Positions 15,838 through 24,023 of a DNA stretch of 64,000 nucleotides are shown piece by piece; positions within the stretch are counted from its first letter, which is position 1, and each line of letters starts with the position of its first letter. A model generated the notes under the pieces. That model did no database searches and had not been told where the DNA came from. It was given only the letters and a program-made list of their open reading frames with translations. Source of the DNA: Limnochordia bacterium (GTDB taxonomy: Bacteria; Bacillota; Limnochordia; DTU080); assembly GCA_050945315.1 (NCBI GenBank), contig JBMNSS010000001.1:1620-65619 (forward strand). Direction: 5' to 3'. A program made the translations under genes and the position numbers.

Positions 15838-16174
15838 GATTAATAGGCTAGCAGCACATGTACCGTCAGTCAAGCAAATCCGTGTGCGCTGTCAGTGATG
15901 TCCTGGCGTGAGTGAGAAGCTGAGGTGGATCACAGTGAAGGAGATCCAAAGGTTACTTGGGAAATATGTATTAGGTCGCTTGCCGGGAATCCGGGCTGTC
16001 CGGCAACTGATGCTATCAGCCTTGGGATCGGCGAACAGAATGCATGTTTCCTCAGACAACGGTTATATTACGAGAGGCTACCAGCCGACATTTTTTGGAA
16101 AGGTGGAATAATCTCTGCTGCCTTCCTATTCAACCCATAAGCCTATAAGAGTTGCCTGCCGGTCTGCAATTCTG

Positions 16175-16735
16175 ATGGTATGTTTAATCTTCCTTGTGAC
16201 CGTCGTCACGTGTTCAGCAACTCGTCTCGGTCAACGCATCCTGGGTTTCGGAGTCTGGGGCGCCGATGTTTTTGAACTCCAGATGCGTCTGCGAGATATG
16301 GGCTACGATGTAGTTGCTGACGGCCGATACGGACCGGCTACGAAGAATGCAGTCATGGCCTTCCAGCGTTCCAAAGGGATAAAGGTTGACGGCCTTGTGG
16401 GGACGGAGACCGCGGCTCATATCATCGCCCGTTGGGGGACCCTTAAGCATCACGTAAAACAAGGAGACGCCATCGCGAGCCTGACTCGACAGTATGGGGT
16501 CAGTGCTGCGGAGATCAGATTGCTGAACAATCTGTCCGATGATGTTATCCGCATTGGTCAGGTGCTCACCATTCCGGCTCCCCCGCAGTATCGCGTTCAA
16601 GAGGGTGACACAATCGAAAGGATCGCGGCTTTAAGCAACAGCAGCCCGGAAGAGCTGGCGGCCCTGAATCAATTGGATGCAATGACCGCGTTGCAGCCCG
16701 GGATGGTGCTGCGCTTGCCCAAGCCCAGTTACTGA
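16175..16735 (+). CDS. peptidoglycan-binding (PG_binding_1) + 2xLysM domain protein
   Basis: N-terminal hydrophobic segment; then GYDVVADGRYGPATKNAVMAFQRSKGIKVDGLVG (PG-binding), followed by two LysM repeats (VKQGDAIASLTRQYGVS...IGQVLTIP; VQEGDTIERIAAL...GMVLRLP). Confidence 0.7.
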   Translation: MVCLIFLVTVVTCSATRLGQRILGFGVWGADVFELQMRLRDMGYDVVADGRYGPATKNAVMAFQRSKGIKVDGLVGTETAAHIIARWGTLKHHVKQGDAIASLTRQYGVSAAEIRLLNNLSDDVIRIGQVLTIPAPPQYRVQEGDTIERIAALSNSSPEELAALNQLDAMTALQPGMVLRLPKPSY

Positions 16736-18882: not shown

Positions 18883-20382
18883 TCAGCTTTTGTAAAGACC
18901 TCGCGCGCTGTGCAAGTCCTCAAGGGTTGCAAGAAGATGAGGATCAAAGTGTTCCCGTGTACGGAGTATCTCTTGCATCGAGCGCTCGTGGAATCCATCC
19001 CCGTTTTTAATCTCACATTTGACTGCGTTTACATATCTTTCGACTAAGTTCAATATGCGTGATTCCATCGGTATGGCCTGTCCTTGCAGACCTTCCGGGT
19101 AGCCTGAACCGTCATAGTTTTCATGATGGTAACGTACGGCGCGCAGCACTTCATCAGGCACTCCAAACATGACCAACATCCGCTCGCTGATCTCAGGGTG
19201 ACTGTTTCCCGTTTTTTCAGAAGAATCTACATCGCTATCCGTGGTCAATCCCACATCCCGAAGGCGCGCCGCCGTCATAAGCCGGGAAAGACATGTCTCA
19301 CCTAAGCCTATCGCATCACCTAGCACCCGGGCGTAGTGGATCACAAGCTCAAGGGTGCGCAAAGACTCCGGATATAGGCTTTCCAGAGTATCCATAAGCC
19401 CCAGCAGAGTTGTGAGGTGACGCAAGAGCTCTTGATCATGCCATTCAACGACAATGCGTTCCCGCTGTAGATTCCGCCTGCGGATTACGTTGTTCAACTC
19501 TTCGGTGGCGAGTGCCCATTCGCGCCACATCTGACTTTGGGCGAAGTAGGTCGTGGCACGCTGAAGGTATCCCAAAGCGGTGCTTCGATCACCTTTCAGG
19601 GTAAAGATGGAGCCGAAAAGGCGGCACAATCGAGCTACTTCGGTCCGGTCCATCCAACCCATGTTATTCCACAAAATGTGAAGCGCGGCGCTTCCTTGGT
19701 GCAGAGCCTCAGGGACATCGCCCCGCTTGAAGTGCAAACGCCCCAACTCAGAACGCGCGTACGCCCTCAGTGCTACATCATGCACTGAATCCAAAGCGGA
19801 TAACGCGGCCTCCAAGAGCCGTTCAGCCGTGTCCAAATCGCCCTGCTCCATAGCAATAATCCCCAGATTGTTGAAACACATCCCCACTTCGGTGCGACTG
19901 CCCATTTTGGAGAACATATCAAGGGCGCATTCCAGATAACCGCGAGCCTGATTCCATTCCTCATGATTGAGCAGGCTGACACCTGCAACGAGTTTGACCG
20001 AAGCGTGCAAATCCAAAGGACCGTCCGAGGGAAAGAGCTTTACGGCTTCAAGAGACAACGGCAGTGCCAGATCTACATCCCCCATGCGCAAATAGCTGAG
20101 GGCAAGATTATTCAGCACTCGACTGTATTCAGGTTGCCTGTTGCCCACTTTGGCACAGAAGGTTTCTGCACCTCGAAAGTGATGGAGAGCTTTCGTATAA
20201 TCACGTAGTTCAAGAAAAAGAGATCCCAAGGCGTTATGGACGCGCACCCCATATCCGGCAGGCGATGAAGGTGATAACATGTCGTGCGCCTTCTCCCAGG
20301 CATCACGAGCCGCGAGCATAAGACCGCGACTGAAATAGGTGCACCCAAGAAGAAGGTGCCGTTCAATCTCTGCTACAGACAT
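18883..20382 (-). CDS. TPR-repeat protein with C-terminal degenerate HD-GYP domain
   Basis: N-terminal ~330 aa of TPR-like repeats. The C-terminus carries HHENYDGSGYPEGLQG (the HD-GYP signature), but the canonical LHDIGK is replaced by LRDVGL. The start is trimmed to an ATG preceded by GGGGTG. Confidence 0.75.
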   Translation of the reverse strand: MSVAEIERHLLLGCTYFSRGLMLAARDAWEKAHDMLSPSSPAGYGVRVHNALGSLFLELRDYTKALHHFRGAETFCAKVGNRQPEYSRVLNNLALSYLRMGDVDLALPLSLEAVKLFPSDGPLDLHASVKLVAGVSLLNHEEWNQARGYLECALDMFSKMGSRTEVGMCFNNLGIIAMEQGDLDTAERLLEAALSALDSVHDVALRAYARSELGRLHFKRGDVPEALHQGSAALHILWNNMGWMDRTEVARLCRLFGSIFTLKGDRSTALGYLQRATTYFAQSQMWREWALATEELNNVIRRRNLQRERIVVEWHDQELLRHLTTLLGLMDTLESLYPESLRTLELVIHYARVLGDAIGLGETCLSRLMTAARLRDVGLTTDSDVDSSEKTGNSHPEISERMLVMFGVPDEVLRAVRYHHENYDGSGYPEGLQGQAIPMESRILNLVERYVNAVKCEIKNGDGFHERSMQEILRTREHFDPHLLATLEDLHSARGLYKS

Positions 20383-20423
20383 AGCACACCCCGGCAAACG
20401 TGATTTTTGTGCGAATCTTGTCG

Positions 20424-20452
20424 TTGACAATTCCGAAAGCTCACTGTATAAT
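20424..20452 (+). promoter_or_regulatory. consensus sigma-A-type promoter
   Basis: TTGACA (20424-20429), 17-nt spacer, TATAAT (20447-20452), lying in the divergent intergenic region. Confidence 0.55.
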
Positions 20453-20508
20453 CCTTGTGTTTGTTGGCAAGGACACTAACTGAATCATGTACCCGGGAGG
20501 TGCTGGGG

Positions 20509-20730
20509 TTGAGCAAATTCAACCGCAGTGAAGATTGGTTTGGGTTTAGGAAAGACCCCTTTGAAGGCTTTCCGGATGACGATAACGACCTGTTCGAGTA
20601 TACACTGCGACTTCCGCATCCGCCTGACCGGGTAATACAATCCCTCCGTATTGTCGATGGTCAGCTGGTAGCAACCTACCGCTTCGTGTTTAGCGATCCC
20701 GACATGTTGTCTATTGACGATTACGACTGA
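20509..20730 (+). CDS. small acidic hypothetical protein
   Basis: 73 aa from a TTG preceded by GGAGGTG, downstream of the consensus promoter; sequence FEGFPDDDNDLFEY...; no family recognised. Confidence 0.45.
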   Translation: MSKFNRSEDWFGFRKDPFEGFPDDDNDLFEYTLRLPHPPDRVIQSLRIVDGQLVATYRFVFSDPDMLSIDDYD

Positions 20731-20740
20731 CATTTGTACG

Positions 20741-21397
20741 TCAACGGGATCGTGTTTCTTTTATGATCCTGACCAATGCCTTAGCTTTTTCCGTGATTGT
20801 ATCAAAACGACCGGCGGAGATCGCTTTCAGGTCTACCAAGGCCCCTCCTACTCCTACTGCCATAGCCCCTGCCTGAATGAATGCTGCGGCGTTCTCCGTG
20901 TTGATACCTCCCGTAGGAATCAAGGGGATTTGTGGCAGTGGGCCCCGTATTTGACGCAGGTACGAAGGGCCAAGGACTCCGGCCGGAAAGATTTTCACGG
21001 CGGAAGCCCCGGCAGAACACGCTTGGACGATTTCGGTGGGAGTCATGACTCCGGGAATGGCTGTCTTACCATACCTATTGGCCATAGCGATAACCTCTGT
21101 ATTCAACGCCGGCGAAAAAATGAACTGTGCCCCAGCCAAAATGGCCGCCCGCGCTGTTTCGGGATCCAATACCGTACCTGCCCCGATAAGAGCCTCCTCC
21201 CCCAGATCCGCGGTTACCTCTTCAATCATGCGCAAAGCCCCGGGAGCATCAACCGTAACCTCCAGGATGTCGACACCTCCCGCTTTTAGAGCCCGCGCTA
21301 CCTTAACGACCGTATCTGCCTGCATACCGCGCATCACCGCGATGACACCTGAGTGAGCAATACGTTGAAGATAAGCAGACGATGATCCAGAATGCAT
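20741..21397 (-). CDS. eda: 2-dehydro-3-deoxyphosphogluconate (KDPG)/4-hydroxy-2-oxoglutarate aldolase
   Basis: 218 aa. VIAVMRG...GGVDILEVT...GAGTVLDPETARAAILAGAQFIFSP...GVMTPTEI...GASAVKIFPA is a typical Eda TIM barrel with the Schiff-base Lys. Confidence 0.85.
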   Translation of the reverse strand: MHSGSSSAYLQRIAHSGVIAVMRGMQADTVVKVARALKAGGVDILEVTVDAPGALRMIEEVTADLGEEALIGAGTVLDPETARAAILAGAQFIFSPALNTEVIAMANRYGKTAIPGVMTPTEIVQACSAGASAVKIFPAGVLGPSYLRQIRGPLPQIPLIPTGGINTENAAAFIQAGAMAVGVGGALVDLKAISAGRFDTITEKAKALVRIIKETRSR

Positions 21398-21550
21398 ATT
21401 CTCTCTCCCTGGATTTCAGCTTTTGATCGTTCGTGGAGCTATTCGTTGTCGTGCTGCTTTCTCCTTGAGGCAGTTGATTGCCGGGAAGAAGGAAACGCGC
21501 TGGTCCCGCGGAAGACCATCTTACACACTGGGCACGAAGGAGCACGCGCC

Positions 21551-22819
21551 ATGGCTGCAGATACCTGGTATCATCGGGGCCCTGAAATGAGCCAACTCCC
21601 CTCCGGAAAGGAACCGCAACTGGGGCAAGCCGTGGGATCATCTAAAGATGAACCTCTGGGAATCTTCCTCTCCATGGAGGCCGCCGATCTCATTGGTAGG
21701 CACCTGATGAACGAGCCCGACAGAGAAGCGGGAGGCATACTGGTTGGGTATGTTGCTCAAAGCGATCGTCCTTTCGTTCTTGTCTCCGGTGCCATAGAAG
21801 CCCGTTATGCCGAGGTTGTCGGCGGCAGTATAGGGCTCAATGAACGTTCCTGGGAGTACATGCACACTCTGTGGAGCCGTGACTACCCCTCTGCCTTGGT
21901 CGTAGGATGTTTTCTCAGCCACCCCAATAGGGGGGTTGGGTTGACCAGCTACGATCGCTTCACCCAACATCGCTTTTTCAATCATCCGTGGCAAGTTGTG
22001 TTGGTCGTTGACACCGAACAAAACGTCTCGCAGTTCTACCGTTGGCGAGGAAGAGAGTTGCACCCCGTGGAAGGTTTCGTAATCTGGGACGCACGTAAAG
22101 AGCCCTTTGGTTCTTTGTTGGACCTTCAGGGTCCTTTTTATGGTTCCGGATGGCAGCGCCGATCGGAAGACGAGACGCGCAAACGCACACACCTTTTTGC
22201 ACCGACCAAAGCCTCTCCGGAAAGCAATGAGACTGAAGCACCTGAACCCAAACGCCTCCGCCCTCAGCCTCGACCCTCACCCCCCATCTTTCGTTTTTGG
22301 CCTATGATCTTGGCTGTATTGATGGTTTCCCTCTTGCTTTGGCCTCGCTTTCCTTGGAGTCTGACGCGTTTGTGGTTTTCGGGTACTCAGCTCCAGCAGG
22401 AGCTTCATGAGTTACAAGAGACGCTCCGACAGGCTCAACAAGAACAAGAATCAGGATTACAGTCAGAATCAGAGTCAGAATCAGATGAGCCCGATGTGGT
22501 TAACGACAATGCCTTAAGCTTTCAAATGGATACAACACAGTCGTCACAGTCGTCTTCGGACGCAGTCTCTTCCGGGACGACCTCCCAAATGACCTATCGC
22601 GTACGGCCGGGGGACACTCTATGGTCGATCAGTGAGAGACTCATGGGTGACCCTCGGGAGTACCGTCGCTTGGCCGTCATCAATCAGATTGAAGACCCTG
22701 CTCTCATACATCCCGGTACTGATCTGACTTTCCCTGATCCTGATTTCTCGCCGCATCACGACGAGGCTAGAACCAGCTTTGATGCTTCAAGCGAGCCGAC
22801 ACGGGTCAGTGGCCAGTAA
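21551..22819 (+). CDS. membrane protein: degenerate MPN/JAMM-like domain + TM helix + coiled-coil/acidic linker + C-terminal LysM
   Basis: EAGGILVGY...CFLSHPNRGVGLTSYD. The JAMM HxHx7Sx2D motif is degenerate: the first His is Leu and the Ser is Thr. A TM helix ILAVLMVSLLLW follows, then QLQQELHELQETLRQAQQEQES, then LysM YRVRPGDTLWSISERL...IHPGTDLTFP. Start ATG at 21551 follows AAGGAG. Confidence 0.65.
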   Translation: MAADTWYHRGPEMSQLPSGKEPQLGQAVGSSKDEPLGIFLSMEAADLIGRHLMNEPDREAGGILVGYVAQSDRPFVLVSGAIEARYAEVVGGSIGLNERSWEYMHTLWSRDYPSALVVGCFLSHPNRGVGLTSYDRFTQHRFFNHPWQVVLVVDTEQNVSQFYRWRGRELHPVEGFVIWDARKEPFGSLLDLQGPFYGSGWQRRSEDETRKRTHLFAPTKASPESNETEAPEPKRLRPQPRPSPPIFRFWPMILAVLMVSLLLWPRFPWSLTRLWFSGTQLQQELHELQETLRQAQQEQESGLQSESESESDEPDVVNDNALSFQMDTTQSSQSSSDAVSSGTTSQMTYRVRPGDTLWSISERLMGDPREYRRLAVINQIEDPALIHPGTDLTFPDPDFSPHHDEARTSFDASSEPTRVSGQ

Positions 22820-23325
22820 CGCCATAGAGCTCTTCCCAATATCATACGATGGGCGACAAAGCCGACGCGTGGGGTGCGACTGTCTTCGGAGTTGTTGCGG
22901 TTGTCGCCCAGTACAAAGACGTGGCCTTTGGGAACCGCGTAAGGACCGAAGTTGCCCAGGACAGAGGATTCCAGGTAGGGCTCGTCCAAAACAATGCCGT
23001 TAATATAGACTCGGCCATCACTGATCACAATCGTGTCACCGGGAACTCCTATCACTCTTTTTATATAAAGCTGCCTTTGCTCTCCGGACACCCGAAAAAC
23101 CACAACTTCACCTCGCCGCGGCGACCGCAGGCGGTAGGTAAGCCTGTCCACCAAAAGCCGTTCTCCTGAGCGAATAGTGGGCATCATCGAGGGCCCGTCG
23201 ACCGTAAAGGCCTTGAGAGCAAAGGCCATGATGCAGACAGAGAGTAAAAATGCGCCGGCTACCGTATGTGCAAAATCAAGTAGCCGACTGTTGGAGAAAC
23301 CGCGGAAAGCTCGATAAACAGGCAA
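22756..23325 (-). CDS. lepB: signal peptidase I
   Basis: TM anchor, catalytic box GPSMMPTI (Ser), RLxxP, GDNRNNSEDSR box; 189 aa. Confidence 0.85.
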   Translation of the reverse strand: MPVYRAFRGFSNSRLLDFAHTVAGAFLLSVCIMAFALKAFTVDGPSMMPTIRSGERLLVDRLTYRLRSPRRGEVVVFRVSGEQRQLYIKRVIGVPGDTIVISDGRVYINGIVLDEPYLESSVLGNFGPYAVPKGHVFVLGDNRNNSEDSRTPRVGFVAHRMILGRALWRYWPLTRVGSLEASKLVLASS

Positions 23326-23417: not shown

Positions 23418-24023
23418 TTACAGCTGCCAAAGGCAGCGGCTCATGATCTTCCGATAGATCCTGGAATTCTGCCGAAAAGACTCGTAATCCCGTTCGGCAA
23501 GAGCTTGATCGATCGCTGCCCTGGTCAAGATGGCTTGAACGGCCAGATCAATTTGTTCCCGAACGATCTCACGCAGCACGGCATCGACGTTGGCCACCGA
23601 CCTTTCAGGTAAGCTCGGGGATGACTCCAAGACATCCAGGTACCAAGCCGGCATCGATCCGCAGAATGAAAAAGTGACGTAAAGCTCACTTCGAAAGGTG
23701 CGTAAAGGCGCTATAGCCTCCATGGGCTCGTTAACACATAAATGACGTTCACGTCGCAGCCGGCGGATAAGCTCGCCGTTGACAATACGCACTTCCTCAC
23801 GTTGGTGAACTCCCAGTTCGAGTTCGAAGCCCACGCGAGGACTCCCTAACTCCGAAACAAGCATGGTGTTTGGTAAGTACTCCCGGTTCCGCACGAAGGT
23901 GATCCGCTTGAGAAGATCCGGCGTGTCTAGTATGAACTGCAGCAAATATTTGCTCATCGGATGCTTCAAAGGAGTGCGAATGAAGTTGCGGATAGCTAAC
24001 TCTTTTAGCTTCATCTTTCTCAC
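23418..24023 (-). CDS. hypothetical protein
   Basis: 201-aa ORF with no recognisable motif; coding-like composition. It lies downstream of lepB on the same strand. Confidence 0.45.
   Translation of the reverse strand: MRKMKLKELAIRNFIRTPLKHPMSKYLLQFILDTPDLLKRITFVRNREYLPNTMLVSELGSPRVGFELELGVHQREEVRIVNGELIRRLRRERHLCVNEPMEAIAPLRTFRSELYVTFSFCGSMPAWYLDVLESSPSLPERSVANVDAVLREIVREQIDLAVQAILTRAAIDQALAERDYESFRQNSRIYRKIMSRCLWQL

What the first reader, a model, noticed from the sequence alone, without database searches (positions are those of the whole stretch)
21551..23325. Membrane protein pairing a degenerate MPN/JAMM domain with an extracellular LysM, convergently overlapping lepB by 64 nt
The N-terminal cytoplasmic MPN-like fold has lost two JAMM zinc ligands (LSHP instead of HSHP; Thr for Ser). 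It is followed by one TM helix, a coiled-coil, a Ser/Glu-rich linker and a C-terminal LysM peptidoglycan-binding domain. This architecture links an inactive deubiquitinase-like scaffold to the cell wall. Its 3' end overlaps the 3' end of the convergent signal-peptidase gene by 64 nt, so the two mRNAs would be antisense to each other. That opens the possibility of mutual regulation.
Basis: partly seen in the sequence, partly recalled or inferred. Interest (0 to 1): 0.5.

Follow-up and report, generated by a model that had tools for sequence, protein, structure and literature searches.

The report
Orphan dead-JAMM membrane protein with LysM
This gene encodes a membrane protein whose inner half is a catalytically decayed copy of a deubiquitinase-type (JAMM/MPN) peptidase and whose outer half binds the cell wall; it descends from peptidases of bacterial ubiquitin-like operons, and its 64-base overlap with the signal-peptidase gene is most simply a by-product of reading-frame geometry.

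Summary
ORF 21551-22819(+) encodes 422 aa and overlaps convergent lepB (22756-23325, -) by 64 nt. Pfam sees only LysM. A family profile hits Rpn11/CSN5 (E 5e-7), the AlphaFold model matches Rpn11 (E 3e-9), and hhalign against canonical relatives gives E 8e-42. One correction: only one zinc ligand is lost (His1->Leu). Glu, His2 and Asp remain, and Ser->Thr is not a ligand change.

An exhaustive search puts it in a large prokaryotic JAB clade. Of the 150 best representatives, 115 keep E..HxH..D and 44 of those have one TM plus LysM. All four canonical loci checked lie in YukD-Ubl/E2/E1/Prok-RING/FHA/trypsin operons. The window protein belongs to a subgroup of at least 35 clusters whose catalytic positions are eroded in different ways. 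In all 11 lineages examined this subgroup is convergent with lepB, and reoY follows wherever the contig extends. The named members are Limnochordia or Firmicutes MAGs. No Ub-like genes are nearby.

The overlap varies from +73 nt to a 62-nt gap. In the frame used, stops can only arise opposite Tyr/His/Gln codons of lepB, and the LepB tail has none, so the ORF must run to the Tyr of RYWP. Antisense regulation is untested and is not needed to explain the overlap.

Verdict: orphan MPN- pseudo-peptidase, probably a scaffold between a cytoplasmic partner and the wall. It is a new variant of a known kind.

The parts
21536..21542 (+). Ribosome-binding site GAAGGAG, 8 nt before ATG 21551
   Evidence: Read directly from the sequence. 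GAAGGAG plus ATG is conserved in L001, L004 and L013, with a variant in L015.
21551..22819 (+). Gene for the 422-aa MPN(-)-TM-LysM protein, stop codon included
   Evidence: ORF list. An identical protein is in NCBI/JGI/Logan. Homologues are intact in 35 or more 50%-identity clusters.
21551..21655 (+). Conserved N-terminal extension (aa 1-35; W-Y-x-x-G-P ... L-P ... E-P ... G)
   Evidence: Conserved across the degenerate subfamily. pLDDT is about 87-89 from aa 11.
21656..22135 (+). MPN (JAB-fold) domain, catalytically degenerate (aa 36-195)
   Evidence: Profile against PDB: Rpn11 E 5e-7. AF2 pLDDT about 90. Foldseek: Rpn11 E 3e-9. hhalign against canonical relatives: E 7.9e-42. No Pfam JAB hit for this sequence on its own.
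21725..21727 (+). Codon of Glu59, the JAMM catalytic-water glutamate, retained here
   Evidence: Alignments. It is replaced by Q, G, A, P and other residues in other subfamily members.
21914..21955 (+). Degenerate JAMM motif L122-S-H124-P-N-R-G-V-G-L-T132-S-Y-D135 (canonical H-x-H-x7-S-xx-D)
   Evidence: Aligned to GWYHSHPGFGCWLSSVD of Rpn11 and to HTHPGFGIFLSSYD of canonical relatives. Motif table.
22136..22285 (+). Disordered, fast-evolving cytoplasmic linker (aa 196-245), basic just before the TM
   Evidence: pLDDT below 50 for aa 199-242. Identity falls to 10-30% in relatives.
22286..22348 (+). Single transmembrane helix (about aa 246-266)
   Evidence: Best 19-aa Kyte-Doolittle window starts at aa 246, mean 2.05. 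AF2 helix at 250-262. A single hydrophobic segment at the equivalent place is the commonest layout among the 150 best relatives.
22349..22450 (+). Juxtamembrane motif (P-W/G-S-L) and extracytoplasmic helix with heptad leucines (aa 267-300)
   Evidence: AF2 helix at 271-300. The motif and the L-x3-L-x2-L pattern are conserved.
22451..22585 (+). Ser/Glu-rich disordered linker (aa 301-345)
   Evidence: pLDDT below 50. Only 7-13% identity beyond the closest relative.
22586..22741 (+). LysM peptidoglycan-binding domain (aa 346-397)
   Evidence: Pfam PF01476: 28.3 bits against a cut-off of 20.9, aa 349-395 of the 422-aa protein. AF2 pLDDT 86-89.
22742..22819 (+). Disordered C-terminal tail (aa 398-422) plus stop. 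The last 21 codons are antisense to the lepB 3' end.
   Evidence: pLDDT below 50. The tail is absent or short in L004, L007, L011, L016 and L098.
22756..22819 (.). 64-nt coding overlap of the two convergent genes. The TAA stop (22817-22819) is antisense to cgT-TAc, the Arg-Tyr of LepB RYWP.
   Evidence: Frame analysis. No excess RNA structure. No terminator-like site.
22756..23325 (-). lepB, type I signal peptidase (S26), with a lineage-specific conserved C-terminal tail
   Evidence: Pfam PF10502: 158 bits, profile positions 3-168 of 168. The tail is conserved in the complete homologues read. Ser (GPSMMPT) and Lys (YIKRVIG) motifs are read directly.
23418..24023 (-). ReoY/YpiB-like gene (UPF0302 + IDEAL) upstream of lepB. 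It is part of the conserved neighbourhood.
   Evidence: Pfam. Present beyond lepB in L001, L004, L012, L016, L096, L097 and L098.

Best explanation
The gene encodes a bitopic envelope protein, with the N-terminus in the cytoplasm and the C-terminus outside. It is an orphaned, catalytically decayed (MPN-) descendant of the JAB-TM-LysM peptidases that elsewhere form part of bacterial ubiquitin-like conjugation operons (YukD-type Ubl, E2, E1, Prok-RING, FHA, trypsin-like protease).

In a group of MAGs whose named members are Limnochordia or Firmicutes, the gene left that operon context. It became fixed in a convergent position against lepB, with reoY beyond. The zinc/catalytic residues were then lost piecemeal, in a different way in each sub-lineage. 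The MPN fold, the TM helix, the juxtamembrane motif with its helix, and the LysM domain stayed under purifying selection.

The most likely mode of action is non-catalytic. LysM holds the protein on peptidoglycan. The extracytoplasmic helix probably mediates self-association. The cytoplasmic MPN- domain serves as a binding surface for a partner: another MPN protein, a beta-grasp protein, or a C-terminal peptide. That would tether or position a cytoplasmic factor relative to the wall.

The 64-nt overlap with lepB is a passive consequence of tight convergent packing. In the frame used, stop codons can only arise opposite lepB codons that begin TA or CA (Tyr, His, Gln). The LepB tail has none, so any ORF entering in that frame must run to the Tyr of the conserved RYWP motif.

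Shown: the fold, the homology, the motif decay, the architecture, the synteny and the frame logic. Inferred: the topology, the scaffold function, the existence of a partner and dimerisation.
For: Fold and homology. Profile hit to Rpn11/CSN5. AF2 domain pLDDT about 90. Foldseek top 50 are nearly all MPN proteins. hhalign E 7.9e-42 against canonical JAB-TM-LysM.

Family size. 5291 representatives at E<1e-3 and 94 at E<1e-30. Of the best 150, 115 keep E/H/H/D. Of those, 44 have one TM plus LysM. Thirty-five are degenerate, and 31 of those have one TM plus LysM.

Ub-like operon context of canonical members, found in 4 of 4 loci checked: L100, L024, L041 and L022. No such genes occur in the window or in the called flanks of related loci.

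Piecemeal decay. The motifs ELHTD, GFHTD, ECHSD, EHQSN, AHNTD, PRHTD, ERRTD and others occur within one subfamily. P0017 (E-HSH-T-D) is still nearly canonical yet is already next to lepB/reoY.

Purifying selection on the domains. MPN identity is 86/76/74/70/60/48% and LysM 85/77/65/65/71/58%, against 60 falling to 10% in the linkers.

Synteny. lepB is convergent in all 11 lineages.

Overlap. Lengths are +64 in four lineages, +73, +56, 0, and gaps of 13, 19, 37 and 62 nt. The frame is open in 100% of synonymous recodings, against 34% and 41% for the other two frames.
Against: No partner has been identified. No MPN paralogue lies in the window, and the rest of the genome could not be searched.

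The window protein itself keeps Glu59, His124 and Asp135, and the stretch around the former active site is the best-conserved part of the protein. Residual metal or ligand binding is therefore not excluded.

Topology rests on hydropathy, the lack of an N-terminal signal peptide and the known extracytoplasmic role of LysM. No dedicated predictor or experiment was used.

The neighbour-joining tree did not resolve the degenerate members as one clade, so a single origin is not proven.

The overlap recurs in lineages only about 30% identical. It could also be ancestral and weakly selected.
Confidence: 0.62

Rival explanations
1. The protein is still an active metallopeptidase. A zinc or other metal site is rebuilt from Glu59, His124, Asp135 and a substitute ligand, such as Cys118 in GCFLSHP or the Cys at the His1 position in P0006-P0008. 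The protein would cleave a cytoplasmic isopeptide or C-terminal tail.
For: Three of the five motif residues are kept in the window protein, and Ser->Thr is conservative. The SHP..G..LTSYDRFTQHRFF..PWQV block is the most conserved segment. P0017, in the same syntenic group, keeps E-HSH-T-D.
Against: His1 is Leu here and is F, C, I, V, R or S elsewhere. His2 becomes R, N or Q, Glu becomes A, P, G, Q, N or T, and Asp becomes E, H or N in other members. No position that could hold a metal is conserved across the subfamily. Cys118 is found only in the window protein and P0002. Pfam JAB models do not reach threshold for the window protein.
Confidence: 0.1
2. The 3' overlap makes the two mRNAs mutually antisense, and this is used to regulate the MPN-LysM gene and lepB (or reoY-lepB) against each other, by transcriptional interference or RNA duplex processing.
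For: The overlap is real. No terminator-like site lies in or near it. The two genes are tightly convergent in every lineage, from +73 nt to a gap of at most 62 nt. Exactly 64 nt recurs in lineages about 30% identical.
Against: Coding overlap is absent in 5 of 11 lineages. The exact length is forced by frame geometry. The overlapped RNA is no more structured than shuffles, with z of 0.17 and -0.28. Both tails evolve fast: 5-6 differences in the 13 residues compared between the window and L001. The gap lineages carry GC-rich hairpins that could act as bidirectional terminators, so transcripts need not overlap there.
Confidence: 0.12
3. It is a decaying relic, a pseudogene in the making, of a lost ubiquitin-like system and has no present function.
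For: Catalytic residues are eroded in many different ways. There are no Ub-like genes nearby. Linkers and tail are unconstrained.
Against: Intact ORFs of similar length occur in 35 or more clusters at 50% identity. The MPN and LysM domains are clearly more conserved than the linkers. The start codon and RBS are conserved. AF2 confidence is high. Position in the genome is conserved down to 28% identity.
Confidence: 0.04

Closest known systems
Prokaryotic JAB/JAMM peptidases of YukD-type Ubl / E2 (UQ_con) / E1 (ThiF) / Prok-RING operons. The operon type was described by Burroughs, Iyer & Aravind, Mol Biosyst 2011; this is recalled from memory, and the paper was not held. The JAB-TM-LysM member is seen here in L100, L024 and others.
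   Same: The N-domain is homologous over about 170 residues (hhalign E 7.9e-42). The architecture is the same: MPN, one TM, a variable linker and a C-terminal LysM.
   Different: The window protein lacks His1 of the zinc site, and its subfamily has no conserved catalytic residues. It is not in an operon with Ubl, E1, E2 or RING genes. It stands alone between a divergent aldolase and convergent lepB. It also has a subfamily-specific N-terminal W-Y-x-x-G-P motif.
Eukaryotic MPN- pseudo-enzymes (Rpn8, CSN6, Abraxas/KIAA0157, eIF3f/h)
   Same: An MPN fold with a broken JAMM motif. These proteins are presumed to act by binding rather than catalysis. Such proteins and their MPN+ partners appear among the fold matches, including KIAA0157 in complex with BRCC36 and an eIF3 PCI-MPN subunit.
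   Different: Those proteins are soluble subunits that pair with an MPN+ partner in large complexes. Here the domain is membrane-anchored and fused to a wall-binding domain, and no partner is known. The sequence is closest to MPN+ proteins (Rpn11, CSN5).
Rpn11 / CSN5 / archaeal Rpn11-like JAMM deubiquitinases
   Same: These are the best sequence-profile and structure matches. Glu, His2 and Asp align.
   Different: The first zinc-binding His is Leu. There is no Pfam-level match. A TM helix and LysM are added.
Bitopic wall-anchored scaffolds such as FtsN (SPOR), MapZ or RodZ. This is an analogy recalled from general knowledge, not homology.
   Same: The layout is the same: a cytoplasmic binding domain, one TM, a flexible linker and an extracytoplasmic peptidoglycan-binding domain.
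   Different: The domains are unrelated. No link to division or elongation genes was seen in the neighbourhood.
Bil/Bub/CBASS-associated JAB peptidases (BilC, BubC, Cap3; PMC11601596)
   Same: JAB-fold peptidases attached to bacterial Ubl-conjugation systems. There are weak PADLOC JAB hits for canonical relatives.
   Different: There is no PADLOC hit for the window protein. Those enzymes are soluble and active, and sit in defence operons.

Membership tests
JAMM/MPN+ metalloprotease (Pfam JAB PF01398 / Prok-JAB PF14464) | MPN (JAB) fold | tested here: met
   Profile against PDB: Rpn11 E 5e-7. AF2 plus Foldseek: Rpn11 E 3e-9, TM 0.69. hhalign E 7.9e-42.
JAMM/MPN+ metalloprotease (Pfam JAB PF01398 / Prok-JAB PF14464) | Complete E-x(n)-H-S/T-H-x7-S-xx-D motif, with two His and Asp binding zinc (PMC300881) | tested here: not met
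   The motif reads E59 ... L122-S-H124 ... T132 ... D135. His1 is replaced by Leu.
JAMM/MPN+ metalloprotease (Pfam JAB PF01398 / Prok-JAB PF14464) | Score above the Pfam gathering threshold | tested here: not met
   No JAB or Prok-JAB hit for the window protein, even at E<=10. Six of the 10 family members scanned do hit JAB at E<=10.
MPN- pseudo-enzyme (Rpn8/CSN6-like class) | MPN fold with a disrupted metal site | tested here: met
MPN- pseudo-enzyme (Rpn8/CSN6-like class) | Pairs with an MPN+ partner | not testable with these tools
   No MPN paralogue in the 64-kb window. Canonical relatives often occur as two MPN genes in tandem.
JAB-TM-LysM component of prokaryotic YukD-Ubl/E1/E2/Prok-RING operons | Homologous N-domain plus one TM plus a C-terminal LysM | tested here: met
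   L024 ORF 3902-5182 has JAB + Prok-JAB + LysM.
JAB-TM-LysM component of prokaryotic YukD-Ubl/E1/E2/Prok-RING operons | Encoded in an operon with Ubl, E1 and E2 genes | tested here: not met
   Neighbours are the aldolase, lepB, reoY, TPR-HD and an MBL-fold gene. phmmer of E1, E2, YukD and RING queries against all window ORFs gave only E of about 0.003-0.005.
LysM domain proteins (PF01476) | Pfam match above the gathering score | tested here: met
   28.3 bits against 20.9, profile positions 1-43 of 43.
Type I signal peptidase S26 (the overlapping gene) | Full-length PF10502 match, with Ser and Lys catalytic motifs | tested here: met
   158 bits, profile positions 3-168 of 168. GPSMMPT and YIKRVIG are read in the translation.
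Functional cis-antisense (convergent overlapping) gene pair | Overlap conserved among relatives beyond what sequence constraints force | tested here: not met
   Six of 11 lineages overlap and five do not. The frame is necessarily open.
Functional cis-antisense (convergent overlapping) gene pair | Overlapping transcripts with a reciprocal effect on expression | not testable with these tools
   Needs strand-specific RNA-seq or Term-seq and reporter constructs. Only the absence of predicted terminators and of special structure could be shown.

The most novel reading that the evidence does not exclude
The MPN- domain may have kept the ability to bind a beta-grasp or C-terminal-tail ligand without cleaving it. 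The protein would then be a transmembrane adaptor that couples the state of the peptidoglycan, read by LysM, to a cytoplasmic proteolysis or wall-synthesis control circuit. The conserved reoY-lepB neighbours fit this idea, since ReoY controls ClpCP-dependent MurA degradation in Listeria (PMC7286690). That would make it a bacterial 'pseudo-DUB receptor', born from a ubiquitin-like system and rewired into envelope homeostasis. The tight convergent packing could add transcriptional coupling.
Probability: 0.1. Interest if true: 0.7.

Novelty: new variant of a known kind. Interest (0 to 1): 0.4.

Why it matters
Two points go beyond routine annotation.

First, membrane-anchored JAB peptidases carrying a peptidoglycan-binding LysM domain turn out to be a common component of bacterial YukD-type ubiquitin-like conjugation operons. 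They account for 44 of the 150 best 50%-identity clusters. I found no description of them in the searchable literature. Their presence suggests these poorly understood systems act at the envelope.

Second, a group of MAGs, named as Limnochordia or Firmicutes where named at all, has kept such a protein. It lost both the operon and, piecemeal, the catalytic residues. This is a natural example of a bacterial pseudo-deubiquitinase, a class well known in eukaryotes (Rpn8, CSN6, Abraxas) but hardly documented in bacteria.

The frame-geometry explanation of the recurrent 64-nt overlap is also a caution. Exact, recurrent gene overlaps can arise without selection.

Tried and rejected
- Pfam, NCBIfam and PADLOC on the window protein returned only LysM-type matches. 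No curated family covers the whole protein.
- The first word-indexed homology search returned only 11 relatives and made the family look tiny. The exhaustive HMM search showed this was a sensitivity artefact.
It was rerun with A1. The source genome itself was not among the 80 loci kept.
- Terminator and promoter scans gave nothing above shuffles. Folding the overlap gave z of about 0.
- A neighbour-joining tree of the 150 N-domains put 22 degenerate members plus P0017 in one clade and left 12 degenerate members outside it. A single origin of the decay is therefore not claimed.
- I asked whether the small conserved ORF upstream (20509-20730) is a leftover ubiquitin-like protein. It has no Pfam hit. 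Its AF2 model is a beta-hairpin with short strands, not a beta-grasp. It is missing from the available upstream flanks of L007/L008, L011/L025 and L016. It is rejected as a Ubl and left as an observation.
- Burroughs et al. 2011 (PMC5938088) is not held, so the comparison with published Prok-RING operons rests on memory.
- Literature searches for LysM plus MPN/JAMM, and for YukD plus DUB plus transmembrane, found nothing relevant.
The architecture does occur in Clostridia MAGs, but there it has an intact JAMM motif and sits in Ub-like operons.
Full report
**1. What is in the sequence**

The region holds a 475-codon ORF, 21392-22819(+). It is preceded by GAAGGAG (21536-21542) at 8 nt. The same RBS and start are conserved in related loci. 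The resulting 422-aa protein is identical to a deposited 'LysM peptidoglycan-binding domain-containing protein [Limnochordia bacterium]'.

On the other strand, 22756-23325 encodes a 189-aa type I signal peptidase: Pfam Peptidase_S26, 158 bits, full-length profile match. The two ORFs share 22756-22819, which is 64 nt. The flanks are a divergent KDPG/KHG aldolase (20741-21397, -) and, beyond lepB, a ReoY/YpiB-like gene (UPF0302 + IDEAL, 23418-24023, -). The gene is therefore monocistronic.

**2. Is the N-terminal domain MPN?**

Pfam sees only LysM in this protein, even at E<=10. I built a profile from nine relatives and left out the one member with a canonical motif.

- The profile hits Rpn11 (4owp_B, E 5e-7) and CSN5 (E 2e-6) among PDB sequences. 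It aligns G-C-F-L-S-H-P...T-S-Y-D with G-W-Y-H-S-H-P...S-S-V-D.
- An AlphaFold2 model built on the family alignment has pLDDT of about 90 for residues 10-195. Its Foldseek matches are dominated by MPN proteins. Rpn11 5u4p_B comes first (E 3e-9, target TM 0.69), followed by CSN5, BRCC36/KIAA0157, the Caldiarchaeum Rpn11 homologue and an eIF3 PCI-MPN subunit.
- A profile-profile comparison with 22 canonical relatives gives probability 100% and E 7.9e-42 over 170 columns.

**3. The state of the active site**

The JAMM motif is E-x(n)-H-S/T-H-x7-S-xx-D. The two His and the Asp bind zinc, and the Glu holds the water (PMC300881 abstract, shown). The window protein has E59, L122 in place of His1, H124, T132 in place of Ser, and D135. 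One zinc ligand is lost, not two, because the Ser is not a ligand.

Across the subfamily every catalytic position varies. Examples are GFHTD, ECHSD, ACHGD, EHQSN, AHNTD, PRHTD, PHRSE, ERRTD and LIQDA. Different members retain different subsets. One member, P0017, is still E-HSH-T-D. This pattern is what relaxed selection on catalysis produces, and it is typical of a pseudo-enzyme.

Meanwhile the fold stays constrained. MPN-domain identity to the window protein is 86, 76, 74, 70, 60 and 48% in P0002-P0007. LysM identity is 85, 77, 65, 65, 71 and 58%. The two linkers fall to about 10%. The gene is not a pseudogene.

**4. The rest of the protein**

- The best hydrophobic 19-mer starts at residue 246 (mean Kyte-Doolittle 2.05). 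AF2 gives a helix at 250-262.
- AF2 then gives a helix at 271-300 carrying L-x3-L-x2-L-x3-L spacing, behind a conserved P-(W/G)-S-L juxtamembrane motif.
- Residues 301-345 are Ser/Glu-rich and disordered.
- Residues 346-397 are LysM (Pfam 28.3 bits against a cut-off of 20.9).
- Residues 398-422 are disordered.

There is no N-terminal signal peptide, there is a single TM after a 245-residue folded domain, and LysM is a wall-binding domain. The topology is therefore inferred to be N-in/C-out. This is an inference, not a test.

**5. The family is large, and its canonical members belong to ubiquitin-like operons**

The word-indexed search found only 11 relatives. The exhaustive HMM search with the N-domain profile found 5291 representatives at E<1e-3, 2820 at E<1e-10 and 94 at E<1e-30. 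The 150 best break down as follows.

| Catalytic E/H/H/D | TM and LysM | Count |
|---|---|---|
| Intact (115) | one TM + LysM | 44 |
| Intact | one TM, no LysM | 43 |
| Intact | two TM | 9 |
| Intact | no TM | 19 |
| Degenerate (35) | one TM + LysM | 31 |
| Degenerate | no TM | 4 |

Genome loci show the canonical form in Chloroflexota, Planctomycetota, Bacillota, Aminicenantes, Actinomycetota and others, often as two MPN genes in tandem.

Their context is consistent in the four loci I annotated:

- L100: E2 - YukD-like Ubl - E1 (ThiF) - E2 - JAB - FHA - trypsin - [JAB-TM-LysM] - Prok-RING/CD225.
- L024 (Clostridia MAG): trypsin - ... - YukD - [JAB-TM-LysM] - E2 - FHA.
- L041 (Pirellulaceae): YukD - E2 - JAB - E1 - JAB-TM - E2 - Prok-RING.
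- L022 (Chloroflexi): Prok-RING - YukD-E2 fusion - two JAB - FHA - VWA.

From memory, this is the prokaryotic E1/E2/RING/JAB system of Burroughs, Iyer and Aravind (2011). The paper was not available to me. I found no paper describing the LysM-bearing JAB.

**6. The degenerate subgroup is an orphan fixed next to lepB**

None of the canonical loci has lepB nearby. Every degenerate locus I could read has lepB convergent downstream. reoY follows lepB wherever the contig extends far enough. The exceptions are L007, where reoY is displaced about 4.7 kb beyond lepB, and L008, where none is called in the 6-kb flank. Identities below are to the window protein.

- L001: 72%.
- L004: 61%.
- L013: 52%.
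- L015: 46%.
- L007/L008: 39%.
- L016: 36% over the N-domain.
- L097: 32%.
- L098: 31%.
- L096: 29%.
- L011/L012/L025: 28%.

The upstream gene is usually the aldolase. It differs in L096, which has thyA-folA, and in L011, which has an isochorismatase. No E1, E2, Ubl or RING gene is in the window or among the genes called in these flanks. Where the sequences are named, they are Limnochordia or Firmicutes MAGs.

P0017/L098 is nearly canonical in motif but already sits in the lepB/reoY context. This suggests that relocation came before catalytic decay. That is an inference. The NJ tree did not resolve the degenerate set as one clade.

**7. The overlap**

The junction between the two genes varies across the 11 lineages.

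| Locus | Junction with lepB |
|---|---|
| Window, L001, L096, L097 | 64-nt overlap |
| L013 | 73-nt overlap (LepB tail 3 aa longer; same stop) |
| L015 | 56-nt overlap (another frame) |
| L004 | 0 (stop codons abut) |
| L098 | 13-nt gap |
| L016 | 19-nt gap |
| L011 | 37-nt gap |
| L007 | 62-nt gap |

LepB's C-terminal tail is conserved in the complete homologues read, in length and in its ...LASS/P* ending, so the lepB stop is genuine. What varies is the tail that follows LysM.

The MPN gene's TAA is antisense to cgT-TAc, the Arg-Tyr of LepB's RYWP. This is why members only about 30% identical also end in ...SGQ*.

In this relative frame a stop can only arise opposite a lepB codon beginning TA or CA (Tyr, His, Gln) that follows a codon ending in T or C. 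The LepB tail WPLTRVGSLEASKLVLASS has no such residue. Synonymous recoding left this frame open in 20000 of 20000 trials for the stop-position count, and in all 5000 trials of the frame comparison. The first possible stop is at Arg-Tyr, which appeared in 48% of trials. The other two frames stayed open in 34% and 41% of trials.

So once the spacer is short and no earlier stop exists, an overlap of exactly 64 nt is the forced outcome. Recurrence does not require selection.

The overlapped RNA is no more structured than shuffles (z of 0.17 and -0.28). No terminator-like site is predicted. The gap lineages carry GC-rich hairpins in the gap. Convergent transcripts may well overlap, but nothing indicates a regulatory device.

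**8. How it most likely works**

Shown: an MPN fold without a conserved metal site, a membrane anchor, an extracytoplasmic helix and a LysM domain, all conserved. Also shown: descent from JAB peptidases of Ub-like operons, and the lack of such an operon nearby.

Inferred: the protein acts non-catalytically. It would be held on peptidoglycan by LysM, perhaps dimerised through the helix, and would offer the cytoplasmic MPN- surface to a partner.

The rivals are residual peptidase activity, an antisense regulatory pair and a decaying relic. They are weighed in the structured fields.

**9. Comparison and novelty**

It works like a eukaryotic MPN- subunit (Rpn8/CSN6 class) in being a non-catalytic MPN module. 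In layout it resembles bitopic wall-anchored scaffolds.

On membership: it is homologous to the JAB-TM-LysM proteins of Ub-like operons but fails that group's operon criterion. It fails the JAMM active-site criterion. It meets the LysM criterion.

I rate it a new variant of a known kind. The interest is moderate. The link to bacterial ubiquitin-like systems and the existence of a bacterial pseudo-DUB lineage are worth recording.

Noticed in passing
window 20509-20730 (+); longest ORF 20455-20730: A small acidic ORF of about 73 aa (MSKFNR..DWFG..FEYTLRLPHPPDRV.QSLRIVDG.LVATYRFVFSDPDML..DYD) with no Pfam hit. It is conserved upstream of the MPN-LysM gene in L001, L004, L013, L015, L096 and L098, and lies directly upstream on the same strand in L096. 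There are 22 clusters in 5.8 billion proteins, all 68-88 aa. The few that are named are Limnochordia hypothetical proteins. The AF2 model is a beta-hairpin with short strands, not a ubiquitin-like beta-grasp.
   Followed up: partly
window 23418-24023 (-): A ReoY/YpiB-like protein (UPF0302/ReoY_N + IDEAL) lies immediately upstream of lepB on the same strand, 92 nt apart. The reoY-lepB pair is conserved opposite the MPN-LysM gene in most related loci. ReoY is a regulator of ClpCP-dependent MurA degradation in Listeria (PMC7286690). A functional link to the LysM protein is only a speculation.
   Followed up: partly
window 22756-22812 (-), LepB residues about 171-189: LepB in this lineage carries a conserved C-terminal extension of about 17 residues after the S26 domain (WRYWP-LTRVGSLE..KL.LASS/P*). 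It is present in every complete related locus read. Its function is unknown, and its lack of Tyr, His and Gln is what keeps the antisense frame open.
   Followed up: partly
L100 461-8208; L024 440-6772; L041 438-6745; L022 1009-7537: Canonical relatives sit in operons with a YukD-like Ubl, one or two UQ_con E2s, a ThiF E1, a second JAB, an FHA/YscD-like protein, a trypsin-like protease and a Prok-RING protein (fused to CD225 in L100). L022 adds a VWA protein. Two MPN+ genes in tandem are common in Chloroflexota and Planctomycetota loci. The membrane-anchored, LysM-bearing JAB suggests these Ub-like systems act at the envelope.
   Followed up: partly
window 21440-21535 (+), upstream of the MPN-LysM start: There are conserved sequence blocks in the 5' region: AGCTATTCG..TC, TTTCTCCTTGA, and AGGAAAC...CCTGCGGAAGACCAT. 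They are shared by the window, L001 and L004, and partly by L013 and L015. No sigma-70-like promoter was detected there. They may be promoter or operator elements, or a 5'-UTR element.
   Followed up: no
window 16112-16732 (+): A second LysM-containing ORF is detected by the family HMM. Its counterpart in L001-L004 is a PG_binding_1 + 2xLysM protein. It has no MPN domain.
   Followed up: no
window 18883-20430 (-): A 515-aa TPR + HD_5 (HD-domain) protein is conserved in the same neighbourhood in L001, L004, L007, L096 and L098. It is part of a long syntenic block rather than specifically linked to the MPN-LysM gene.
   Followed up: no
L010 3-1634 (+): P0010 is the only canonical JAMM-TM-LysM protein found by the first search. 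It lies in a different context, with 4-nt start/stop overlaps with the genes on both sides. The stop-to-stop ORF extends 5' through the upstream gene's region. It was not analysed further.
   Followed up: no
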